Of a stretch of DNA of 64,000 nt, positions 1 through 61,541 are shown piece after piece. This DNA comes from Escherichia coli (GTDB lineage: Bacteria; Pseudomonadota; Gammaproteobacteria; Enterobacterales; Enterobacteriaceae), in the NCBI RefSeq assembly GCF_036507355.1, contig NZ_AP027877.1. One strand, written 5' to 3'. The position numbers and the translations under genes are program-made. Under the pieces are notes generated by a model. It saw nothing but the letters and a program-made list of their open reading frames with translations. It ran no database searches and was not told the DNA's origin. Within the stretch, counting starts at the first letter, position 1, and each line of letters opens with the position of its first letter.

Positions 1-357
1 GGTGCTCTGACGCGGGTCACGCGGCAACGCTTCGTAATCCGCCCAGTTTTTTTCCGCCTGTTTCAGCGAAATACTGGCACTCTCCATCAGCTCAGCAACG
101 GTTGAACCGCTACCAATATTATTCTGATCCATCATGTAGCGGATACCCGCGCGGTTGAGGGTGTTACGCGTCTGCAACAACGCGACCCAGCTGCCATTCA
201 GCGTGGATTGCTGCTGGCGAATGGTTTGTAAAACAGTGAAATTTTCTTTGTCATTCTTTAAGGCATTAAAGAACAGACCGCCTGATGTCAGTTGTAAAAG
301 GCCAAAAACGGCCAAAACCAGCAGTAAGCTGGTCACAATTTTGATACGTTTTAACAT
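1..357 (-). CDS. tsr: Methyl-accepting chemotaxis protein I (serine chemoreceptor), N-terminal 119 codons; gene continues beyond the window start
   Basis: Reverse-strand translation from the ATG at 357 gives [36 protein letters not shown]..., which matches my memory of the Tsr N-terminus. Not in the ORF track because the stop lies outside the window. Confidence 0.85.
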
Positions 358-569
358 GGTTTCTCTTTCCTGTGGACCGATGCAAGATTTTCGGCCAGGA
401 AAGGAAAAACTTTATGAATATCCCGCGGAGATTACGCCGAGTAATTTTATTCACACTCTGAATTTAAAAAGCCATTATTTACATAAATTACTCACAATAT
501 AAATATGTGATATGAATCACATATTTATCGTCACTTAAACGACGCCTTTGCCGCTCAACCGCAAAACTG

Positions 570-598
570 ACCGCTTACATCCCTAAAATAACCACTCA
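570..598 (+). promoter_or_regulatory. Putative BtsR (YehT) binding site upstream of btsT: direct repeat ACCGCTTA-N13-ACCACTCA
   Basis: Direct repeat with 13-nt spacer seen in the tsr-btsT intergenic region; matches the ACC[G/A]CT[C/T]A-N13 motif as I recall it for the yjiY promoter. Confidence 0.45.
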
Positions 599-733
599 GT
601 TATTTACCTTACTTTACGCGCGCGTAACTCTGGCAACATCACTACAGGATAGCGGTCAATTTACCTCCTCAAACGCAACGCAAACCTAGAACGGCTTCGG
701 CCAACTATTAATCAATACATGCCAGGTTTTACT

Positions 734-2884
734 ATGGATACTAAAAAGATATTCAAGCACATACCCTGGGTGATTCTCGGAATCATCGGTGCATTCTGCC
801 TCGCGGTAGTTGCATTACGTCGGGGGGAGCACGTCAGCGCCCTGTGGATCGTGGTCGCCTCTGTGTCGGTGTATCTGGTGGCGTATCGCTACTACAGTCT
901 GTACATCGCCCAGAAGGTGATGAAACTCGACCCCACGCGCGCGACGCCTGCGGTTATTAACAACGACGGTCTGAACTACGTTCCGACCAACCGTTACGTG
1001 TTGTTTGGTCACCACTTCGCCGCTATCGCCGGTGCTGGTCCGCTGGTGGGTCCGGTTCTCGCCGCGCAGATGGGCTACCTGCCTGGCACGCTGTGGCTGC
1101 TGGCGGGGGTCGTGCTGGCCGGTGCGGTTCAGGACTTTATGGTGCTGTTTATCTCCTCTCGCCGTAATGGCGCATCTCTTGGTGAGATGATCAAAGAAGA
1201 GATGGGACCAGTACCGGGGACTATCGCGCTGTTTGGCTGTTTCTTAATCATGATCATCATCCTCGCCGTCCTGGCGCTGATTGTGGTTAAAGCCCTGGCC
1301 GAAAGTCCGTGGGGTGTCTTCACCGTTTGCTCAACCGTACCGATTGCGCTGTTTATGGGTATCTACATGCGCTTTATCCGTCCGGGGCGTGTGGGTGAAG
1401 TCTCTGTCATTGGTATCGTGCTGCTGGTTGCCTCTATCTACTTCGGTGGCGTGATTGCTCACGATCCGTACTGGGGTCCGGCACTGACCTTTAAAGACAC
1501 CACCATTACCTTCGCGCTGATTGGCTATGCGTTTGTTTCCGCACTGCTGCCGGTGTGGCTGATCCTCGCACCGCGCGACTATCTGGCAACCTTCCTGAAA
1601 ATCGGCGTTATCGTCGGCCTGGCGCTGGGTATCGTGGTGCTGAACCCGGAACTGAAAATGCCTGCGATGACCCAGTACATTGACGGTACTGGCCCGCTGT
1701 GGAAAGGCGCTCTGTTCCCGTTCCTGTTCATCACCATCGCCTGTGGTGCGGTATCTGGCTTCCACGCGCTGATCTCTTCCGGTACGACGCCGAAACTGCT
1801 GGCTAACGAAACCGACGCGCGTTTCATTGGCTACGGCGCAATGCTGATGGAGTCCTTCGTGGCGATTATGGCGCTGGTTGCTGCGTCCATCATCGAACCG
1901 GGTCTTTACTTCGCGATGAATACCCCGCCTGCGGGCCTTGGCATCACCATGCCTAACCTGCATGAAATGGGTGGCGAGAACGCGCCGATCATCATGGCGC
2001 AGCTGAAAGACGTTACCGCACACGCGGCGGCGACCGTCAGCTCCTGGGGCTTCGTGATTTCGCCAGAGCAGATCCTGCAAACCGCGAAAGACATTGGTGA
2101 GCCTTCTGTCCTGAACCGTGCAGGTGGTGCGCCGACGCTGGCGGTAGGTATCGCTCATGTGTTCCACAAAGTGCTGCCGATGGCTGACATGGGCTTCTGG
2201 TATCACTTCGGTATTCTGTTCGAAGCCCTGTTCATCCTGACCGCGCTGGATGCGGGTACCCGTTCTGGCCGCTTTATGCTGCAAGACCTGCTGGGTAACT
2301 TCATCCCGTTCCTGAAAAAAACCGACTCTCTGGTTGCCGGTATCATCGGTACTGCGGGCTGTGTGGGTCTGTGGGGCTACCTGCTGTATCAGGGCGTGGT
2401 CGATCCGCTGGGCGGCGTTAAGAGCCTGTGGCCGCTGTTCGGTATCTCCAACCAGATGCTGGCAGCCGTAGCGCTGGTACTGGGCACCGTTGTGCTGATT
2501 AAGATGAAGCGCACCCAATACATCTGGGTAACTGTTGTTCCGGCTGTATGGCTGCTTATCTGCACCACCTGGGCGCTGGGTCTGAAACTGTTCAGCACCA
2601 ACCCGCAGATGGAAGGCTTCTTCTACATGGCAAGCCAGTACAAAGAGAAGATTGCTAACGGTACTGACCTGACGGCGCAGCAGATTGCCAACATGAACCA
2701 CATCGTTGTGAACAACTACACCAACGCGGGCCTGAGTATTCTGTTCCTGATTGTGGTGTACAGCATCATCTTCTACGGTTTCAAAACCTGGCTTGCGGTG
2801 CGTAACAGCGACAAACGTACTGACAAAGAAACACCGTACGTTCCAATCCCGGAAGGCGGCGTGAAGATCTCTTCGCACCACTAA
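734..2884 (+). CDS. btsT: Pyruvate/H+ symporter, CstA family
   Basis: 721-aa ORF; from MDTKKIFKHIPWVILG it matches my memory of YjiY/BtsT. Start moved to the internal ATG. Confidence 0.9.
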   Translation: MDTKKIFKHIPWVILGIIGAFCLAVVALRRGEHVSALWIVVASVSVYLVAYRYYSLYIAQKVMKLDPTRATPAVINNDGLNYVPTNRYVLFGHHFAAIAGAGPLVGPVLAAQMGYLPGTLWLLAGVVLAGAVQDFMVLFISSRRNGASLGEMIKEEMGPVPGTIALFGCFLIMIIILAVLALIVVKALAESPWGVFTVCSTVPIALFMGIYMRFIRPGRVGEVSVIGIVLLVASIYFGGVIAHDPYWGPALTFKDTTITFALIGYAFVSALLPVWLILAPRDYLATFLKIGVIVGLALGIVVLNPELKMPAMTQYIDGTGPLWKGALFPFLFITIACGAVSGFHALISSGTTPKLLANETDARFIGYGAMLMESFVAIMALVAASIIEPGLYFAMNTPPAGLGITMPNLHEMGGENAPIIMAQLKDVTAHAAATVSSWGFVISPEQILQTAKDIGEPSVLNRAGGAPTLAVGIAHVFHKVLPMADMGFWYHFGILFEALFILTALDAGTRSGRFMLQDLLGNFIPFLKKTDSLVAGIIGTAGCVGLWGYLLYQGVVDPLGGVKSLWPLFGISNQMLAAVALVLGTVVLIKMKRTQYIWVTVVPAVWLLICTTWALGLKLFSTNPQMEGFFYMASQYKEKIANGTDLTAQQIANMNHIVVNNYTNAGLSILFLIVVYSIIFYGFKTWLAVRNSDKRTDKETPYVPIPEGGVKISSHH

Positions 2885-2892
2885 CCGTGTTT

Positions 2893-2920
2893 AGCCCCGC
2901 TTCGGCGGGGCTTTGTTCTT
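2893..2920 (+). terminator. Rho-independent terminator after btsT
   Basis: GC hairpin AGCCCCGC-TTCG-GCGGGGCT followed by a T-rich tract. Confidence 0.6.
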
Positions 2921-2933
2921 ATCAGAGTGAACT

Positions 2934-3137
2934 ATGTTTGGTAACTTAGGACAGGCAAAAAAATATCTCGGCCAGGCGGCAAAGATGTTGATTGGCATTC
3001 CAGACTACGACAACTACGTCGAGCATATGAAGACCAACCATCCCGACAAGCCGTACATGAGCTATGAAGAATTCTTCCGCGAACGCCAGAACGCGCGCTA
3101 CGGCAGCGATGGTAAAGGCGGTATGCGCTGTTGTTAA
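2934..3137 (+). CDS. yjiX: Small DUF466-family protein, partner of BtsT
   Basis: 67-aa [36 protein letters not shown]...; matches my memory of YjiX. Confidence 0.85.
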
Positions 3138-3147
3138 TGGAGAGAGC

Positions 3148-4104
3148 ATGAACCCGATTGCAGTTACCCTACTCACCGGTTTTTTAGGCGCGGGAAAAAC
3201 CACCCTGCTGCGCCATATTCTTAACGAACAACACGGCTACAAGATTGCCGTGATTGAAAACGAATTCGGCGAAGTCTCCGTTGATGATCAACTAATTGGC
3301 GACCGCGCCACGCAGATCAAAACGCTGACCAACGGCTGCATCTGCTGTTCGCGCTCCAACGAGCTGGAAGACGCACTACTCGACCTGCTGGATAATCTCG
3401 ACAAGGGCAATATTCAGTTTGACCGTCTGGTCATTGAATGCACCGGCATGGCCGATCCCGGCCCGATTATTCAGACCTTTTTCTCCCATGAGATTTTATG
3501 CCAGCGTTACCTGCTGGACGGTGTGATTGCGCTGGTGGATGCGGTACATGCCGACGAGCAGATGAACCAGTTCACCATCGCCCAGTCCCAGGTTGGCTAC
3601 GCCGACCGTATTCTGCTGACCAAAACCGACGTCGCAGGCGAAGCAGAAAAACTGCGTGAACGCCTGGCGCGCATCAACGCCCGTGCACCGGTCTACACCG
3701 TCACCCACGGCGACATCGACCTGGGCCTGCTGTTCAACACCAACGGTTTTATGCTGGAAGAGAACGTCGTCAGCACCAAACCGCGTTTCCACTTTATCGC
3801 GGATAAACAAAACGATATTTCGTCGATTGTGGTGGAACTGGATTACCCGGTAGATATCAGCGAAGTTTCCCGGGTGATGGAAAACCTGCTTCTGGAATCG
3901 GCAGATAAACTGCTGCGTTACAAAGGGATGCTGTGGATTGACGGCGAACCTAACCGCCTGCTGTTCCAGGGCGTCCAGCGCCTCTACAGCGCCGACTGGG
4001 ACCGCCCGTGGGGCGATGAAAAACCGCATAGCACAATGGTGTTTATCGGGATTCAGTTGCCGGAGGAAGAGATTCGGGCAGCGTTTGCGGGGTTGAGGAA
4101 GTAA
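3148..4104 (+). CDS. yjiA: CobW/HypB-family GTPase (zinc-binding)
   Basis: From MNPIAVTLLTGFLGAGKTT: P-loop GxxGxGK and a CICC motif. The track ORF starts 28 codons upstream; I prefer the internal start. Confidence 0.85.
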   Translation: MNPIAVTLLTGFLGAGKTTLLRHILNEQHGYKIAVIENEFGEVSVDDQLIGDRATQIKTLTNGCICCSRSNELEDALLDLLDNLDKGNIQFDRLVIECTGMADPGPIIQTFFSHEILCQRYLLDGVIALVDAVHADEQMNQFTIAQSQVGYADRILLTKTDVAGEAEKLRERLARINARAPVYTVTHGDIDLGLLFNTNGFMLEENVVSTKPRFHFIADKQNDISSIVVELDYPVDISEVSRVMENLLLESADKLLRYKGMLWIDGEPNRLLFQGVQRLYSADWDRPWGDEKPHSTMVFIGIQLPEEEIRAAFAGLRK

Positions 4105-4115
4105 TTTTGGATGAT

Positions 4116-4147
4116 GGCCGCCATGTGGCGGCCTGAATTATTTTTTG
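4116..4147. terminator. Hairpin plus T-tract between convergent yjiA and the antitoxin gene; possibly bidirectional
   Basis: GGCCGCCATGTGGCGGCC stem-loop followed by TTATTTTTTG. Confidence 0.5.
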
Positions 4148-4440
4148 TTCTGATCGCGCAGCATCGCTTCACGTAAAATTGCGTTCAGGCGAGTTTGATA
4201 GCCTTTACCTGGTCGCTTCAACCATTCCATCACATCAGCATCAATACGCACCGAAGCCTGAGTTTTCAATGGCCGATAAAACTTACCGCGTTCGGCGTTA
4301 GACCATTGCTCATCGCTGGAAGGTGGGATATCACTGTAATCAATATCTTCGTCGGATTTATTCGCCAGCGCCTTCAGTTCGGCCTCATGCTGCACATCGA
4401 GTGTAGAGGAGGTCCCTCGTTTATGTTTAACCATGCTCAT
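4138..4440 (-). CDS. BrnA-like antitoxin
   Basis: C-terminal ...GKGYQTRLNAILREAM resembles BrnA-family antitoxins. Start taken at the internal Met (MSMVKHK); the track ORF extends further upstream and overlaps the toxin gene. Confidence 0.55.
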   Translation of the reverse strand: MSMVKHKRGTSSTLDVQHEAELKALANKSDEDIDYSDIPPSSDEQWSNAERGKFYRPLKTQASVRIDADVMEWLKRPGKGYQTRLNAILREAMLRDQNKK

Positions 4441-4714
4441 AGCGATTCCTCTCTTTACGATCTGCTTTTCGTGCACTGATGATTCGAATAATTTCATTTC
4501 CGCTTTCGAAACGGATGGTATGCGCAACCAGAATAACCACGATGCCGTAAACCAGGCCGATTGTCTGCCAGCGATACTCACCGTTTTCTATGCGTTCTTG
4601 CTGTGACAAATGTTGTGGATCATCAAACAATAACACCGCATCTTCAAAGCGGATGCCATGTTTCACCCGATTACTTTTGGCCTTGTTTTCATCCCATTCA
4701 AACTCCATTGGCAT
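4427..4714 (-). CDS. BrnT-like toxin (DUF497)
   Basis: MEFEWDENKAKSNRVKHGIRFEDAVLLFDDP...IRIISARKA matches the BrnT pattern as I recall it. Toxin gene lies upstream of and overlaps the antitoxin gene. Confidence 0.65.
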   Translation of the reverse strand: MPMEFEWDENKAKSNRVKHGIRFEDAVLLFDDPQHLSQQERIENGEYRWQTIGLVYGIVVILVAHTIRFESGNEIIRIISARKADRKERNRYEHG

Positions 4715-4912
4715 AATTGCCATCCCTAATTGTATATACAAAAATGTATCTACAATTATTCTGCAATTATAGCGTTGATGTTGGAAATAGCATCACGTTT
4801 CGAATAATCAACCATGAAATTGACAATGAGTAAGTTGGACTTGATTCATCCAATAGAATTTCTCGCCTGACATGGCACACTAAACACCTCGCTGTCGGGT
4901 AATGACTCCAAC

Positions 4913-5415
4913 TTACTGATAGTGTTTTATGTTCAGATAATGCCCGATGGCCTTGTCATGCAGCTCCACCGATTTTGAGAACGACAGTGACTTCCGTCCC
5001 AGCCTTGCCAGATGTTGTCTCAGATTCAGATTATGTCGCTCAATGCGCTGAGTGTAACGCTTGCTGATAACGTGCAGCTTTCCCTTCAGGCGTGATTCAT
5101 ACAGCGGCCAGCCATCCGTCATCTATACTACGACCTCAAAGGCCGACAGCAGGCTCAGAAGACGCTCCAGTGTGGCCAGAGTGCGTTCACCGAAGACGTG
5201 GCCACAACCGTCCTCCGTATCCTGTCATACGCGTAAAACAGCCAGCGCTGACGTGATTTAGCACCGACGTAGCCCCAATGTTCGTCCATTTCAGCGCAGA
5301 CAATCACATCACTGCCCGGTTGTATGCGCGAGGTTACCGACTGCGGCCTGAGTTTTTTAAGTGACGTAAAACCGTGTTGAGGCCAACGCCCATAATGCGT
5401 GCACTGGCGCGACAT
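4913..5415 (-). pseudogene. insB: IS1 insB broken into two ORF fragments (4913-5122 and 5155-5415)
   Basis: Copy 2 has a continuous 167-aa InsB ORF; here the same protein is split across two frames. Confidence 0.6.
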
Positions 5416-5609
5416 CCGACGCCATTCATGGCCATATCAATGATTTTCTGGTGCGTACCGGGCTGAGAGGCGGTGTAAGTGAACTGCAGTTGCCATGTTT
5501 TACGGCAATGAGAGCAGAGATAGCGCTGATGTCCGGCAGTGCTTTTGCCGTTACGCACCACGCCTTCAGTAGCGGAGCAGGAAGGACATCTGATGGAAAT
5601 GGAAGCCAC
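5334..5609 (-). CDS. insA: IS1 InsA
   Basis: 91-aa [46 protein letters not shown]... Confidence 0.85.
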
Positions 5610-5923
5610 GCAAGCACCTTAAAATCACCATCATACACTAAATCAGTAAGTTGGCAGCATTACCAAATTTTAATTACACTTAAGGTGTATATTTTCTATG
5701 CAAGCCATCAATTAAAGAGGTGTAATGTGCTGATGACTATTTGTAATCGTTATACATTCTGACCTGGAGTCAGAAGGTATTTCTCTGTCTGTGTATTCGC
5801 AGGCAGTGTGGTTGATTACATGAAATTCAGTACATTTGTCCTTCTCGCCTGCCTTTCGTCATTACCGACGGTATTGAATTTCGTTTTCCCCATTGGGGTT
5901 CTCCGGACAAGGAGTTGTTTGTT

Positions 5924-7156
5924 ATGCCACGTTTTTTTGCCCGCCATGCCGCCACGCTGTTTTTCCCGATGGCGTTGATTTTGTATGACTTTGCTGCGTA
6001 TCTGTCGACGGACCTGATCCAGCCAGGGATCATTAATGTGGTCCGTGATTTTAATGCCGATGTCAGTCTGGCCCCGGCTGCCGTCAGTCTCTATCTCGCT
6101 GGAGGCATGGCATTGCAGTGGCTGCTGGGGCCGCTTTCCGACAGGGTTGGCCGCAGGCCGGTGCTGATTACCGGGGCGCTAATATTTACCCTTGCCTGTG
6201 CTGCGACAATGTTCACAACGTCTATGACACAGTTTCTTATCGCGCGTGCAATTCAGGGCACCAGTATCTGTTTTATTGCCACCGTTGGTTATGTCACGGT
6301 GCAGGAGGCGTTCGGACAGACAAAAGGGATCAAGTTGATGGCGATTATCACCTCCATCGTACTGATTGCGCCGATTATTGGCCCGCTTTCCGGCGCAGCT
6401 CTGATGCACTTTGTGCACTGGAAAGTCCTTTTTGCCATCATTGCGGTTATGGGTTTTATCTCATTTGTTGGCTTACTGCTGGCGATGCCAGAGACGGTGA
6501 AGCGCGGCGCGGTTCCATTTAGCGCCAAAAGCGTCTTGCGCGATTTTCGTAATGTCTTTTGCAATCGGCTGTTCCTCTTTGGCGCAGCAACCATCTCTTT
6601 AAGCTATATCCCCATGATGAGTTGGGTGGCTGTCTCGCCGGTGATCCTGATCGACGCGGGCGGCTTAACAACTTCGCAGTTCGCCTGGACACAGGTTCCG
6701 GTGTTCGGCGCGGTGATTGTCGCGAATGCCATCGTGGCGCGTTTCGTTAAAGATCCGACCGAACCGCGCTTTATCTGGCGTGCCGTACCCCTTCAACTGG
6801 TTGGCCTCGCGCTGTTGATTATCGGCAATCTGCTGTCACCGCACGTCTGGCTGTGGTCGGTGCTGGGCACCAGTCTGTATGCTTTCGGGATTGGTTTGAT
6901 TTTCCCGACCTTATTCCGCTTTACGCTGTTTTCCAATAACTTACCGAAAGGGACCGTCTCCGCATCGCTGAATATGGTGATCCTGATGGTGATGTCTGTC
7001 TCGGTCGAAATCGGCCGCTGGCTGTGGTTTAACAGCGGTCGCTTGCAGTTTCATCTGTTAGCCGTTGTGGCAGGCGTTATCGTCGTTTTCACCCTGGCCG
7101 GATTGCTTAATCGCGTGCGCCAACATCAGGCTGCCGAGCTGGCGGAGGAGCGGTGA
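5924..7156 (+). CDS. mdtM: MFS multidrug efflux transporter
   Basis: From [35 protein letters not shown] matches my memory of MdtM; hydrophobic multi-TM profile. Confidence 0.9.
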
Positions 7157-7196
7157 TTTTTGCGCGATCCTGCCGTCAGGCTCTATTCTTAACATT

Positions 7197-8477
7197 ATGA
7201 ATAAACTCATTGAACTCAGACGCGCCAAAATGTTGGCGCTCTCTTTACTGCTTATCGCCGCTGCTACCTTTGTCGTTACGCTGTTTTTGCCGCCTAATTT
7301 TTGGGTGAGCGGCGTGAAGGCGATTGCTGAAGCGGCGATGGTCGGCGCGCTGGCGGACTGGTTTGCGGTGGTGGCGCTGTTTCGCCGCGTGCCGATTCCG
7401 ATCATTTCTCGTCATACGGCGATTATTCCGCGTAATAAAGACCGGATTGGCGAAAATCTCGGCCAGTTCGTGCAGGAAAAATTTCTCGATACCCAATCGC
7501 TGGTGGCATTGATTCGACGTCACGAACCGGCGTTGTTGATTGGCAACTGGTTTAGTCAGCCAGAAAACGCCCGCCGCGTTGGTCAGCATCTGTTGCAGAT
7601 CATGAGCGGTTTTCTTGAACTAACCGATGATGCGCGTATTCAGCGCCTGCTTAAGCGCGCGGTCCACCGGGCGATTGATAAAGTCGATCTTTCTGGCACC
7701 AGTGCGTTGATGCTGGAGAGTATGACTAAAAACGATCGTCATCAGGTGCTGCTGGATACGCTGATCGCACAGTTGATCGCCCTTCTCCAGCGCGATAAAT
7801 CGCGCAAGTTTATTGCCCAGCAAATTGTTCGCTGGCTGGAGAGCGAGCATCCACTGAAAGCCAAAATTTTGCCCACTGAATGGCTGGGCGAACATAGCGC
7901 GGAGTTGGTTTCTGACGCGGTGAATTCTTTGCTTGATGATATCAGCCGCGATCGTGCGCATCAGATCCGCCATGCGTTTGATCGCGCTACCTTCGCCCTG
8001 ATCGAGAAACTGAAAAACGATCCGGAAATGGCGGCGCGAGCCGATGCCGTAAAAAGCTATCTGAAAGAAGATGAAGCTTTTAACCGCTATCTCAGTGAAT
8101 TGTGGGGGGATTTACGGGAATGGCTGAAAGCGGATATCAACAGTGAAGATTCTCGTGTGAAAGAACGTATCGCGCGGGCTGGTCAATGGTTTGGCGAAAC
8201 GTTAATTGCCGATGATGCCTTGCGGGCGTCGTTAAATGGTCATCTGGAACAAGCCGCACACCGCATTGCGCCTGAGTTTTCCGCATTCCTGACTCGCCAT
8301 ATCAGCGACACGGTAAAAAGCTGGGACGCACGGGATATGTCGCGGCAAATCGAGTTAAATATCGGCAAAGATCTCCAGTTTATCCGTGTCAACGGTACGC
8401 TGGTTGGCGGTTGTATTGGACTTATTTTGTATTTGCTGTCGCAGCTCCCGGCCTTGTTCCCCCTCGGCAATTTATAG
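7197..8477 (+). CDS. yjiN: DUF445 inner-membrane protein
   Basis: From [27 protein letters not shown]; the ATG at 7197 was checked in the sequence. The track ORF carries a 44-codon N-terminal extension that overlaps mdtM. Confidence 0.8.
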
Positions 8478-8592
8478 AAATCCATGAAAAACTAAGTGGC
8501 TAACCGCGAGAGAGATCAAATAAACCACACTAAAAGAATGGTAATAATGTGGCCTCTTTTCATTATCTCCCGTGGTACGGGGAAGGAAAATC

Positions 8593-9254
8593 ATGTCACT
8601 TGTCACCGATCTACCCGCCATTTTCGATCAGTTCTCTGAAGCTCGCCAGAAAGGCTTTCTCACCGTCATGGATCTCAAGGAGCGCGGCATTCCGCTGGTT
8701 GGCACCTACTGCACCTTTATGCCGCAAGAGCTCCCGATGGCAGCCGGTGCGGTTGTGGTTTCGCTATGTTCCACCTCTGATGAAACCATTGAAGAAGCCG
8801 AGAAAGATCTGCCGCGCAACCTCTGCCCGCTGATTAAAAGCAGCTACGGCTTCGGCAAAACCGATAAATGCCCCTACTTCTACTTTTCTGATCTGGTGGT
8901 CGGTGAAACCACCTGCGACGGCAAAAAGAAAATGTATGAATACATGGCGGAGTTTAAGCCCGTTCATGTGATGCAACTGCCAAACAGCGTTAAGGACGAT
9001 GCCTCGCGTGCATTATGGAAAGCCGAGATGCTGCGCTTGCAAAAAACGGTAGAAGAACGTTTTGGGCACGAGATTAGCGAAGATGCTCTGCGCGATGCCA
9101 TTGCGCTGAAAAACCGCGAACGTCGCGCACTGGCCAACTTTTATCATTTGGGGCAGTTAAATCCTCCAGCGCTTAGCGGCAGCGACATTCTGAAAGTAGT
9201 CTACGGCGCAACCTTCCGGTTCGATAAAGAGGCGTTGATCAATGAACTGGATGC

Positions 9255-9258
<4 letters not shown>
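8593..9258 (+). CDS. yjiM: 2-hydroxyacyl-CoA dehydratase component (HgdB-like), N-terminal ORF of a split yjiM
   Basis: MSLVTDLPAIFDQFSEARQKGFLTVMDLKERGIPLVGTYCTFMPQE...; ends ...ELDA at a TGA that overlaps the next ATG. Confidence 0.7.
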
Positions 9259-10520
<1,262 letters not shown>

Positions 10521-10691
10521 AAGAGTATCTGTTTTTATTTCACTCCACGGTCGGCGTCATACAAACCCGCAAGGCGTTGCAGGCAGCGGGCATGACTTTT
10601 CGCGTCAGCGATATTCCCCGTGATTTACGCGGCGGCTGCGGGTTATGCATTTGGCTGACCTGTCCGCCTGGCGAGGAAATTCAATGGGTGA

Positions 10692-11699
<1,008 letters not shown>

Positions 11700-11766
11700 C
11701 AGGCTGGCATGTTTCACCTTTTTGTTATTAACTTGTTAACAACAAAAATGACAAACAAGGTTAAAC

Positions 11767-12945
11767 ATGCCTTCGCCCTCGCATCCCGTAGAACGCTTTT
11801 CTTTCAGCACCGCGCTTTTCGGGATGCTGGTTCTGACCTTAGGTATGGGTTTAGGCCGCTTCCTTTATACGCCTATGTTGCCCGTCATGATGGCGGAAGG
11901 ATCGTTTTCATTTAGCCAGCTCTCGTGGATTGCCAGCGGCAACTATGCGGGGTATCTGGCTGGCAGTCTGCTATTTTCGTTTGGCGCATTTCACCAGCCA
12001 TCGCGCCTGCGCCCATTTCTGTTGGCTTCTGCCCTGGCGAGCGGGTTGTTGATCCTCGCAATGGCATGGTTGCTGCCATTTATTCTGGTGTTATTGATTC
12101 GCGTCCTGGCGGGTGTCGCCAGCGCCGGTATGCTGATTTTTGGTTCGACGCTGATTATGCAGCACACGCGCCATCCTTTTGTGCTGGCAGCTTTGTTTTC
12201 TGGCGTTGGCATTGGCATCGCACTGGGCAATGAATATGTTCTGGCAGGCCTGCATTTTGACCTCTCCTCGCAAACGTTATGGCAAGGCGCCGGGGCGCTT
12301 TCTGGCATGATGCTGATTACACTTACGCTTTTAATGCCCTCGAAAAAACACGCCATCACACCAATGCCATTGGCAAAAACGGAGCAACAGATAATGAGCT
12401 GGTGGTTACTGGCTATTCTGTACGGCCTGGCGGGATTTGGTTATATCATCGTCGCGACTTACCTGCCGCTCATGGCGAAAGATGCAGGCTCACCATTGTT
12501 AACCGCCCATCTCTGGACGTTAGTCGGCTTATCAATTGTGCCTGGTTGCTTTGGCTGGCTATGGGCAGCAAAACGTTGGGAGGCTTTGCCCTGCCTGACG
12601 GCGAATTTGCTGGTGCAGGCTATCTGTGTGCTGCTTACTCTCGCCAGCGACTCGCCTCTCTTGCTTATCATCAGCAGTCTTGGTTTTGGCGGTACCTTTA
12701 TGGGCACGACATCTCTGGTGATGACTATCGCCCGCCAACTGAGCGTACCGGGAAATCTCAATCTTTTAGGCTTTGTGACGCTCATTTACGGCATTGGACA
12801 AATCCTCGGCCCGGCGCTGACCAGTATGCTCGGCAATGGAACATCGGCGCTTGCCGGCGCCACTCTCTGCGGCGCGGCGGCGTTGTTTATTGCTGCGCTT
12901 ATCAGCACAGTACAATTATTTAAGCTGCAAGTGGTCACTTCATGA
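11767..12945 (+). CDS. yjiJ: MFS-type transporter (DUF1228)
   Basis: 392-aa hydrophobic ORF in the K-12 position of yjiJ. Confidence 0.8.
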
Positions 12946-44200: not shown

Positions 44201-44298
44201 GTTCACAGATAAAACACTCTCCAGGAAACCCGGGGCGGTTCACTTAGCCGCGTGTCCATTATTGCTGGATAAGATCATAACGAGGTAATGACTCCAAC

Positions 44299-44802
44299 TT
44301 ATTGATAGTGTTTTATGTTCAGATAATGCCCGATGACTTTGTCATGCAGCTCCACCGATTTTGAGAACGACAGCGACTTCCGTCCCAGCCGTGCCAGGTG
44401 CTGCCTCAGATTCAGGTTATGCCGCTCAATTCGCTGCGTATATCGCTTGCTGATTACGTGCAGCTTTCCCTTCAGGCGGGATTCATACAGCGGCCAGCCA
44501 TCCGTCATCCATATCACCACGTCAAAGGGTGACAGCAGGCTCATAAGACGCCCCAGCGTCGCCATCGTGCGTTCACCGAATACGTGCGCAACAACCGTCT
44601 TCCGGAGCCTGTCATACGCGTAAAACAGCCAGCGCTGGCGCGATTTAGCCCCGACATAGCCCCACTGTTCGTCCATTTCCGCGCAGACGATGACGTCACT
44701 GCCCGGCTGTATGCGCGAGGTTACCGACTGCGGCCTGAGTTTTTTAAGTGACGTAAAATCGTGTTGAGGCCAACGCCCATAATGCGGGCTGTTGCCCGGC
44801 AT
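44299..44802 (-). CDS. insB: IS1 InsB (transposase frame)
   Basis: 167-aa ORF ...[42 protein letters not shown]... Confidence 0.85.
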
Positions 44803-44996
44803 CCAACGCCATTCATGGCCATATCAATGATTTTCTGGTGCGTACCGGGTTGAGAAGCGGTGTAAGTGAACTGCAGTTGCCATGTTTTACGACAGTGAGA
44901 GCAGAGATAGCGCTGATGTCCGGCGGTGCTTTTGCCGTTACGCACCACCCCGTCAGTAGCTGAACAGGAGGGACAGCTGATAGAAACAGAAGCCAC
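44721..44996 (-). CDS. insA: IS1 InsA
   Basis: 91-aa [46 protein letters not shown]... Confidence 0.9.
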
Positions 44997-45065
44997 TGGA
45001 GCACCTCAAAAACACCATCATACACTAAATCAGTAAGTTGGCAGCATCACCGGCCTCGCATTTAA

Positions 45066-48888: not shown

Positions 48889-48973
48889 TGGTGCCGAAGG
48901 CCGGACTCGAACCGGCACGTATTTCTACGGTTGATTTTGAATCAACTGCGTCTACCGATTTCGCCACTTCGGC
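48889..48973 (-). tRNA. leuX: tRNA-Leu (leuX type, CAA anticodon)
   Basis: Reverse complement reads GCCGAAGTGGCGAAATCGGTAGACGCAGTTGATTCAAAATCAACCGTAGAAATACGTGCCGGTTCGAGTCCGGCCTTCGGCACCA, a cloverleaf with a long variable arm and CCA end. Confidence 0.9.
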
Positions 48974-54426: not shown

Positions 54427-55941
<1,515 letters not shown>

Positions 55942-55944
55942 TTG

Positions 55945-56275
<331 letters not shown>

Positions 56276-61037: not shown

Positions 61038-61541
61038 ATGAATAACATTGCGCCGCAATCACCTGTAATGCGTCGCCTGACGTTGCAGGATAATCCTGCT
61101 ATCGCCCGCGTCATTCGTCAGGTATCCGCCGAATACGGTCTTACCGCTGATAAAGGCTACACCGTCGCCGATCCGAATCTTGACGAGCTGTATCAAGTGT
61201 ATAGTCAGCCTGGTCATGCATATTGGGTGGTTGAGTACGAGGGTGAAGTGGTCGGCGGCGGTGGGATTGCGCCATTAGCAGGTAGTGAATCGGACATTTG
61301 CGAACTGCAAAAGATGTATTTTCTTCCGGCTATTCGCGGTAAAGGGCTGGCGAAAAAACTGGCCTTAATGGCGATGGAGCAAGCACGAGAGATGGGCTTC
61401 AAACGCTGCTATCTGGAAACGACCGCTTTTTTAAAGGAAGCCATTGCGCTTTATGAGCATTTGGGCTTTGAGCATATCGACTATGCGCTTGGCTGCACGG
61501 GCCATGTCGATTGTGAAGTGCGGATGCTACGCGAACTCTAA
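61038..61541 (+). CDS. yjgM: GNAT-family N-acetyltransferase
   Basis: 167-aa ORF with GNAT-like ...[20 protein letters not shown]... Confidence 0.8.

What the first reader, a model, noticed from the sequence alone, without database searches (positions are those of the whole stretch)
570..598. Candidate BtsR direct-repeat operator upstream of btsT
ACCGCTTA-N13-ACCACTCA lies about 140 bp upstream of the btsT start, consistent with BtsS/BtsR control of this transporter as I recall it.
Basis: partly seen in the sequence, partly recalled or inferred. Interest (0 to 1): 0.2.

Follow-up and report, generated by a model that had tools for sequence, protein, structure and literature searches.

The report
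Known BtsR activator site upstream of btsT
The two 8-base repeats are the already published binding site through which the pyruvate-sensing regulator BtsR (YehT) switches on the pyruvate transporter gene btsT (yjiY) in E. coli, so the finding is correct but ordinary.

Summary
Observation confirmed. ACCGCTTA (570-577), a 13-nt spacer and ACCACTCA (591-598) are exactly where stated, on the btsT strand, 136-164 nt upstream of the btsT ATG (734). This stretch of the window is E. coli, and from 491 to the ATG it is base-for-base identical to K-12 MG1655.

Interpretation supported. The published oligonucleotide named 'yjiY YehT bs' (PMC4847170, Table 1) equals window 545-602 exactly.

The pair is not chance. 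It is the only exact hit in 64 kb. In 78 related Enterobacterales loci the 8-mer is about 175-fold enriched upstream of btsT, always on the forward strand, at a 20/21-bp period.

- There is a third, equally conserved distal repeat. It is GCCGCTCA at 550-557 here and ACCGCTCA in other E. coli haplotypes.
- A perfect CRP box lies at 506-521, at a fixed 44-nt offset from the distal repeat.
- A conserved extended -10 (TGGCAACAT, 631-639) lies 35 nt downstream of the last repeat.

I infer a transcription start near 646, which puts the repeat centres at about -92, -72 and -51.

The element works as an activator site rather than a repressor operator. Novelty: already known. Interest: low.

The parts
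570..577 (+).
   Evidence: It matches ACCRCTYA with no mismatch. Information content is 1.6-2.0 bits at positions 1-6 across 75 distinct orthologous operators.
578..590 (+). 13-nt spacer, catccctaaaata; the sequence is not conserved, only its length (12 or 13 nt)
   Evidence: Spacer columns carry 0.2-0.9 bits. The R1-R2 period is 20 nt in 52 and 21 nt in 23 of the distinct operators.
591..598 (+). Repeat R2, ACCACTCA (promoter-proximal box)
   Evidence: It sits at a fixed 43 nt (start to start) from the conserved -10 hexamer.
550..557 (+). Repeat R0, GCCGCTCA: a third, distal box 20 nt upstream of R1, with one mismatch (G for A at position 1)
   Evidence: R0 is as conserved as R1 and R2 across genera. 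It reads ACCGCTCA in O157:H7 SS17, in the hpa-type E. coli FDAARGOS_1290 and in Escherichia spp. L001 and L002. It lies inside the published 'YehT bs' oligonucleotide. Binding by BtsR is inferred, not shown.
545..602 (+). Stretch identical to the native part of the published SPR oligonucleotide 'yjiY YehT bs'
   Evidence: PMC4847170, Table 1, compared.
506..521 (.). Perfect CRP box, TGTGAtatgaaTCACA
   Evidence: the only exact hit in the window, 0.04 expected. A CRP box with 2 mismatches or fewer is present in all 79 btsT upstream regions examined. In 68 of them it starts 44 nt before R0, although the 28 nt in between are not conserved. cAMP-CRP control of yjiY is published (PMC5431176).
631..639 (+). 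Inferred core promoter: extended -10, TG-G-CAACAT (hexamer 634-639), with no good -35
   Evidence: TGnCAnnAT is conserved 40-41 nt after the start of R2 in 63 of the 79 operators scanned. The generic sigma-70 scan, which requires a -35, finds nothing here. This is an inference from conservation and was not mapped.
646..646 (+). Predicted transcription start (A, 7 nt after the -10), giving an 88-nt leader
   Evidence: Inference only; no TSS data could be retrieved. With this start, R2 spans -55 to -48, R1 spans -76 to -69, R0 spans -96 to -89, and the CRP centre is at -132.5.
734..2884 (+). btsT (yjiY) coding sequence, the regulated gene

Best explanation

Each 8-nt box is expected to be contacted by one LytTR domain. 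The 20/21-bp period is two helical turns, so the bound monomers lie on one face of the DNA.

The boxes lie just upstream of a promoter with an extended -10 and no usable -35. When the histidine kinase BtsS senses extracellular pyruvate, activated BtsR occupies the boxes and recruits or positions RNA polymerase. A CRP box held at a fixed distance upstream adds catabolite control.

Shown: the sequence, its identity to the published site, its conservation and its phasing. Inferred: the transcription start, the positions relative to it, one monomer per box, and any role for the third box at 550-557.
For: - The motif is exact at the stated coordinates and unique in the window.
- The window is identical to K-12 MG1655 from 491 to the btsT ATG, so published K-12 experiments apply directly.
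- The published 'yjiY YehT bs' oligonucleotide equals window 545-602.
- LytTR sites are generally two repeats of 9-11 nt separated by 11-13 nt (PMC4847170 introduction).
- BtsS/BtsR has btsT as its single target (PMC5936718).
- btsT expression is lost in a Salmonella btsSR mutant (PMC9504724).
- The BtsR motif is reported as conserved across gamma-proteobacteria (PMC5552118).
- In my own footprinting, 78 loci from Escherichia to Rahnella, Erwinia and Pantoea keep forward-strand ACCRCTYA boxes at a 20/21-nt period, while the spacers drift.
- The distance from R2 to a conserved extended -10 is fixed, and the CRP box sits at a fixed offset.
- The module stays intact in E. coli whatever lies upstream: tsr, an orphan ORF or hpaC.
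Against: - No binding experiment can be run here.
- The primary footprint and EMSA paper could not be read. The literal consensus and the '13-bp spacer' wording rest on my memory.
- The transcription start is inferred, so the -51, -72 and -92 positions are provisional.
- btsSR is not in the window.
- Most orthologous sites use a 12-nt R1-R2 spacer rather than E. coli's 13-nt one. The exact spacer length is therefore not critical.
Confidence: 0.95

Rival explanations
1. The functional unit is a three-box array (550-557, 570-577, 591-598) rather than the two-box site described. BtsR would bind as a trimer or as overlapping dimers, and the K-12-type G at position 550 would weaken the distal box.
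For: R0 is as conserved as R1 and R2: 1.5-2.0 bits at positions 1-6 in 75 distinct operators. It lies on the same strand at the same 20/21-nt period. It is canonical ACCGCTCA in O157:H7 SS17, FDAARGOS_1290 and Escherichia spp.. It falls inside the oligonucleotide the authors chose as the 'binding site'. PMC4847170 says flanking DNA matters for LytTR binding. One Citrobacter locus (L019) has four boxes.
Against: As far as I recall, the literature describes a direct repeat of two motifs. K-12, where BtsR control was established, has a mismatch in R0. No binding data are available here. The authors may already have noted R0; I could not read the primary paper to check.
Confidence: 0.55
2. The repeats are bound by a different regulator, for example the paralogous LytTR regulator YpdB/PyrR, LeuO or CRP, and BtsR acts only indirectly.
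For: btsT expression is influenced by YpdA/YpdB, LeuO and CRP (PMC5936718).
Against: [quoted passage not shown] YpdB recognises GGCATTTCAT, a different sequence. CRP has its own perfect box at 506-521. The oligonucleotide is explicitly named a YehT binding site.
Confidence: 0.02
3. The two similar 8-mers lie next to each other by chance, or are the remnant of a tandem duplication, and have no function.
For: Single ACCRCTYA 8-mers occur at the chance rate in the window (8 against 6.3).
Against: The phased pair or triple is never produced by shuffling. The boxes are conserved across genera while the spacers are not. That is the opposite of what a decaying duplication would give. The 8-mer is about 175-fold enriched on the forward strand upstream of btsT, with no reverse-strand copy.
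Confidence: 0.01

Closest known systems
YehT/BtsR binding site in the E. coli K-12 yjiY (btsT) promoter (Kraxenberger et al. 2012; oligonucleotide in Behr et al. 2016, PMC4847170)
   Same: It is the same locus and the same sequence. The window is identical to MG1655 from 491 to the btsT ATG and to the published oligonucleotide over 545-602.
   Different: Nothing differs in the site itself. Upstream of about 490 the window has three small differences from MG1655.
YpdB (PyrR) site in the yhjX promoter: direct repeat of GGCATTTCAT
   Same: It belongs to a paralogous LytS/LytTR system. It is also a direct repeat with a period of about 21 bp, it activates a single transporter gene, and binding is sequential and cooperative ('AB-BA').
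   Different: The box sequence and length differ (10 nt, 11-nt spacer). YpdB-D53E does not bind the yjiY fragment.
AgrA, ComE and PlnC-type LytTR boxes of Gram-positive bacteria
   Same: These are two direct repeats of about 9 nt separated by about 12 nt, placed just upstream of a promoter with a poor -35. The general statement is in PMC4847170. The details of the individual systems are from my own knowledge.
   Different: The consensus sequences are unrelated and the signals are quorum-sensing peptides. The three-box arrangement plus a phased CRP box seen here is not, to my knowledge, part of those descriptions.

Membership tests
BtsR (YehT) box of the btsT/yjiY promoter | Direct repeat matching ACC[G/A]CT[C/T]A (consensus recalled from the abstract of Kraxenberger 2012) | tested here: met
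   Both boxes match with no mismatch. The logo I derived from 75 distinct operators is ACC(G/A)CT(C/T)(A/G).
BtsR (YehT) box of the btsT/yjiY promoter | 13-bp spacer (21-bp period) between the two boxes | tested here: met
   Positions 578-590 are 13 nt. Orthologues use 12 or 13 nt.
BtsR (YehT) box of the btsT/yjiY promoter | Located in the promoter of btsT, on the btsT strand | tested here: met
   The gene is identified as btsT. The boxes lie 136-164 nt upstream of the ATG and 35 nt upstream of a conserved extended -10.
BtsR (YehT) box of the btsT/yjiY promoter | Coincides with the experimentally used YehT binding-site DNA | tested here: met
   The native part of the oligonucleotide 'yjiY YehT bs' equals window 545-602.
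BtsR (YehT) box of the btsT/yjiY promoter | Physically bound by BtsR and required for pyruvate induction | not testable with these tools
   This needs EMSA, footprinting or reporter assays. The published work could not be read in the original.
LytTR-type response-regulator binding site (general) | Two direct (or inverted) repeats of 9-11 nt separated by 11-13 nt (PMC4847170) | tested here: met
   The conserved cores are 8 nt, with partly conserved flanks and 12-13-nt spacers.
LytTR-type response-regulator binding site (general) | Conservation of the boxes, but not the spacers, in orthologous promoters | tested here: met
   boxes carry 1.5-2.0 bits and spacers 0.0-0.9 bits.
CRP-dependent (catabolite-controlled) promoter | TGTGA-N6-TCACA box in a conserved position | tested here: met
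   There is a perfect box at 506-521. It is conserved in 79 of 79 upstream regions, at a 44-nt offset from R0 in 68 of them. CRP regulation is published. Its centre, near -132 by my inferred start, is unusually far upstream for CRP acting alone.

The most novel reading that the evidence does not exclude
The natural BtsR target may be a rigid module of about 135 bp conserved across Enterobacterales. Its layout is: CRP box, 28 nt, three phased BtsR boxes, 35 nt, extended -10. The distal third box would be functional but undescribed. E. coli lineages differ in it: it is weakened to GCCGCTCA in the K-12-type haplotype carried by about half of complete genomes, and it is canonical ACCGCTCA in the single O157-type and hpa-type genomes I read. 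That difference could tune how strongly or transiently btsT responds to pyruvate.
Probability: 0.3. Interest if true: 0.3.

Novelty: already known. Interest (0 to 1): 0.1.

Why it matters
The site is the cis element of the only known BtsS/BtsR target. It underlies the PbtsT reporters used as pyruvate biosensors. Confirming it adds nothing new for E. coli K-12. The comparative picture gives a modest refinement: three boxes, a fixed-phase CRP box, an extended -10, and a module kept intact across different upstream neighbours. That picture could guide reporter design, and it suggests a simple experiment on natural variation in the distal box.

Tried and rejected
- I tried to read the primary paper (PMC3416263), the YpdB paper (PMC3562098), Behr 2014 (PMC4010973) and the Salmonella TSS atlas (PMC3356629). 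None is held.
- Several full-text searches for the literal motif or for a mapped yjiY transcription start found nothing usable.
- The generic sigma-70 scan gave only two weak sites, at 450-478 (+) and 503-474 (-). Both lie upstream of the CRP box and neither is better than shuffles. I rejected them as the btsT promoter in favour of the conserved extended -10.
- I considered a sigma-54 reading of the conserved TGGCA. I rejected it by eye because no GC follows at the -12 spacing.
- I tested for a structured leader. The predicted 5'UTR folds no better than shuffles (z = +1.0), and no Rfam family matches there.
- The second motif hit, at 61224-61252 with 2 mismatches, lies inside an ORF and I dismissed it as chance.
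- I tried to annotate the whole window from strain 720632. It is collinear only to 5664 and then rearranged, so I used that annotation only for the first few kilobases.

Full report
**What is there.**
The left end of the window holds the 5' end of tsr on the minus strand (1-357). A 376-nt intergenic region follows, then btsT (734-2884, + strand), yjiX and yjiA. They lie on the btsT strand, 136-164 nt upstream of the annotated ATG. This stretch is E. coli: 5389 of 5426 complete genomes match the intergenic region. From 491 to the btsT ATG the window is identical to K-12 MG1655.

**Is it more than chance?**
- The degenerate pattern ACCRCTYA-N13-ACCRCTYA has one exact hit in 64 kb. Shuffles give a mean of 0.27 hits even with two mismatches allowed.
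- Single 8-mers are at the chance level, 8 observed against 6.3 expected. The signal is therefore the phased arrangement.
- The only other near-hit (61224-61252, two mismatches) lies inside an ORF.

**Match to the literature.**
The primary paper (Kraxenberger et al. 2012) is not in the held library. Behr et al. 2016 (PMC4847170, Table 1) lists the oligonucleotide 'yjiY YehT bs sense'. Its native part is identical to window 545-602. In that study the fragment was the non-binding control for the paralogous regulator YpdB-D53E, which argues against YpdB as the protein acting here.

The same paper states the general LytTR site architecture: two repeats of 9-11 nt separated by 11-13 nt. Other held papers establish four further points:
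- btsT is the single BtsS/BtsR target (PMC5936718).
- cAMP-CRP and CsrA also control btsT (PMC5431176).
- The BtsR motif is conserved in gamma-proteobacterial yjiY promoters (PMC5552118).
- btsT induction is lost in a Salmonella btsSR mutant (PMC9504724).

The literal consensus ACC[G/A]CT[C/T]A with a 13-bp spacer is from my memory of the 2012 abstract. The window sequence fits it perfectly.

**Comparative footprint.**
A scan of one genome per species returned 80 loci encoding BtsT at 90% identity or more, from Escherichia to Rahnella, Erwinia and Pantoea. Upstream of btsT the exact 8-mer occurs 182 times on the forward strand and never on the reverse strand in 25 kb. In 289 kb of coding sequence and 3' flank it occurs 12 times forward and once reverse. 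Of the gaps between neighbouring ACCRCT cores, 138 of 161 are 20 or 21 nt.

The orthologous regions carry three boxes, not two. All 78 loci with enough upstream sequence, and the window, have a phased triple with at most 3 mismatches in 24 positions. That gives 75 distinct operator sequences. Information content is 1.5-2.0 bits at box positions 1-6 in all three boxes, against 0.0-0.9 bits in the spacers.

It reads ACCGCTCA in O157:H7 SS17, in FDAARGOS_1290 and in two Escherichia species. This third box lies inside the published oligonucleotide. I could not establish whether it has been described as a box.

**Promoter context (inferred).**
A motif TGnCAnnAT starts 40-41 nt after the start of the proximal box in 63 of the 79 operators scanned. 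In the window it is TGGCAACAT at 631-639. I read it as an extended -10. There is no convincing -35, which is what an activator-dependent promoter would show.

A start about 7 nt further on, at A646, gives an 88-nt leader. That places the boxes at about -96/-89, -76/-69 and -55/-48, all on one helical face.

Upstream, TGTGAtatgaaTCACA (506-521) is a perfect CRP box and is unique in the window. A CRP box with 2 mismatches or fewer is present in all 79 regions. In 68 of them it starts exactly 44 nt before the distal box, although the intervening 28 nt are not conserved.

In E. coli the whole module, from CRP box to -10, is retained unchanged in spacing whatever lies upstream: tsr, an orphan ORF or hpaC.

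The predicted leader is not structured (z = +1.0) and matches no Rfam family.

**Mechanism.**
The most likely reading, with confidence about 0.95, is the established one. BtsS senses extracellular pyruvate. Activated BtsR binds the phased direct repeats through its LytTR domain and activates a promoter that lacks a -35. CRP contributes from a phased upstream site.

Shown here: identity with the published site, non-random occurrence, strand and phase constraints, and cross-genus conservation. Inferred: one monomer per box, the role of the distal box, the transcription start and hence the positions relative to it.

**Verdict.**
This is the already known BtsR (YehT) site, so novelty is 'already known' and interest is low. 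The only mildly new element is the conserved three-box plus CRP module and the natural variation in the distal box. Together these amount to a testable refinement rather than a discovery.

Noticed in passing
window 358-550; L082 600-1500; L084 800-900: The DNA upstream of the btsT regulatory module is polymorphic in E. coli. 2632 of 5426 complete genomes carry the K-12-type tsr-btsT spacer seen in the window. 365 carry an O157-type version with an orphan 180-aa ORF that has no Pfam match. In at least one other genome (FDAARGOS_1290) the hpa operon (hpaC) abuts the module. All the junctions lie just upstream of the CRP box.
   Followed up: partly
L001 about 1380-1495; L003; L013; L084 1055-1190: An element of about 123 bp resembling ERIC/IRU (it contains GAATCCCCGGGAGCTTACA...GTAAGTGAC.GGGGTGA) is inserted in the btsT 5'UTR just upstream of the ribosome-binding site. 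It is present in Escherichia sp. E1V33, E. albertii, Citrobacter portucalensis and hpa-type E. coli, and absent from the window. The ERIC identification is by eye, from memory of the consensus.
   Followed up: partly
window 388-414 (minus strand): TAAAGTTT-N11-GCCGAAAA is read on the minus strand ahead of tsr, a close match to the sigma-28 (FliA) class 3 flagellar promoter consensus. I read it by eye and did not test it.
   Followed up: no
window 663-670 and 693-702: The predicted btsT leader contains two short blocks conserved across genera: ACCTCCTC (anti-Shine-Dalgarno-like) and GGCTTCGGCC (a small UUCG hairpin). The leader as a whole is not more stable than shuffles. CsrA control of btsT is published, but I did not map any sites.
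   Followed up: partly
window 4138-5664: Directly after yjiA lie a BrnT/BrnA toxin-antitoxin pair (4138-4714) and an IS1 (about 4898-5664). From memory, K-12 has the mrr-hsd-mcr immigration control region at this position. The annotation is taken from strain 720632, which is collinear with the window and 99.95% identical over 1-5664.
   Followed up: partly
window 4898-11933 and 44284-45051: Relative to strain 720632, the segment 4898-11933 is inverted between IS1 copies. Collinearity is lost again after 25029. Another IS1 copy lies at 44284-45051.
   Followed up: no
window 48889-48973, 54988-55182, 56016-56189 (all minus strand): There is a tRNA-Leu(CAA) gene. There is a full-length match to Rfam Ysr276 (174.7 bits). 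Two tandem naRNA4 (REP-derived) matches follow.
   Followed up: no
L019 about 1297-1365: Citrobacter sp. R56 carries four phased ACCGCT boxes, at -203, -183, -163 and -143, instead of three.
   Followed up: no
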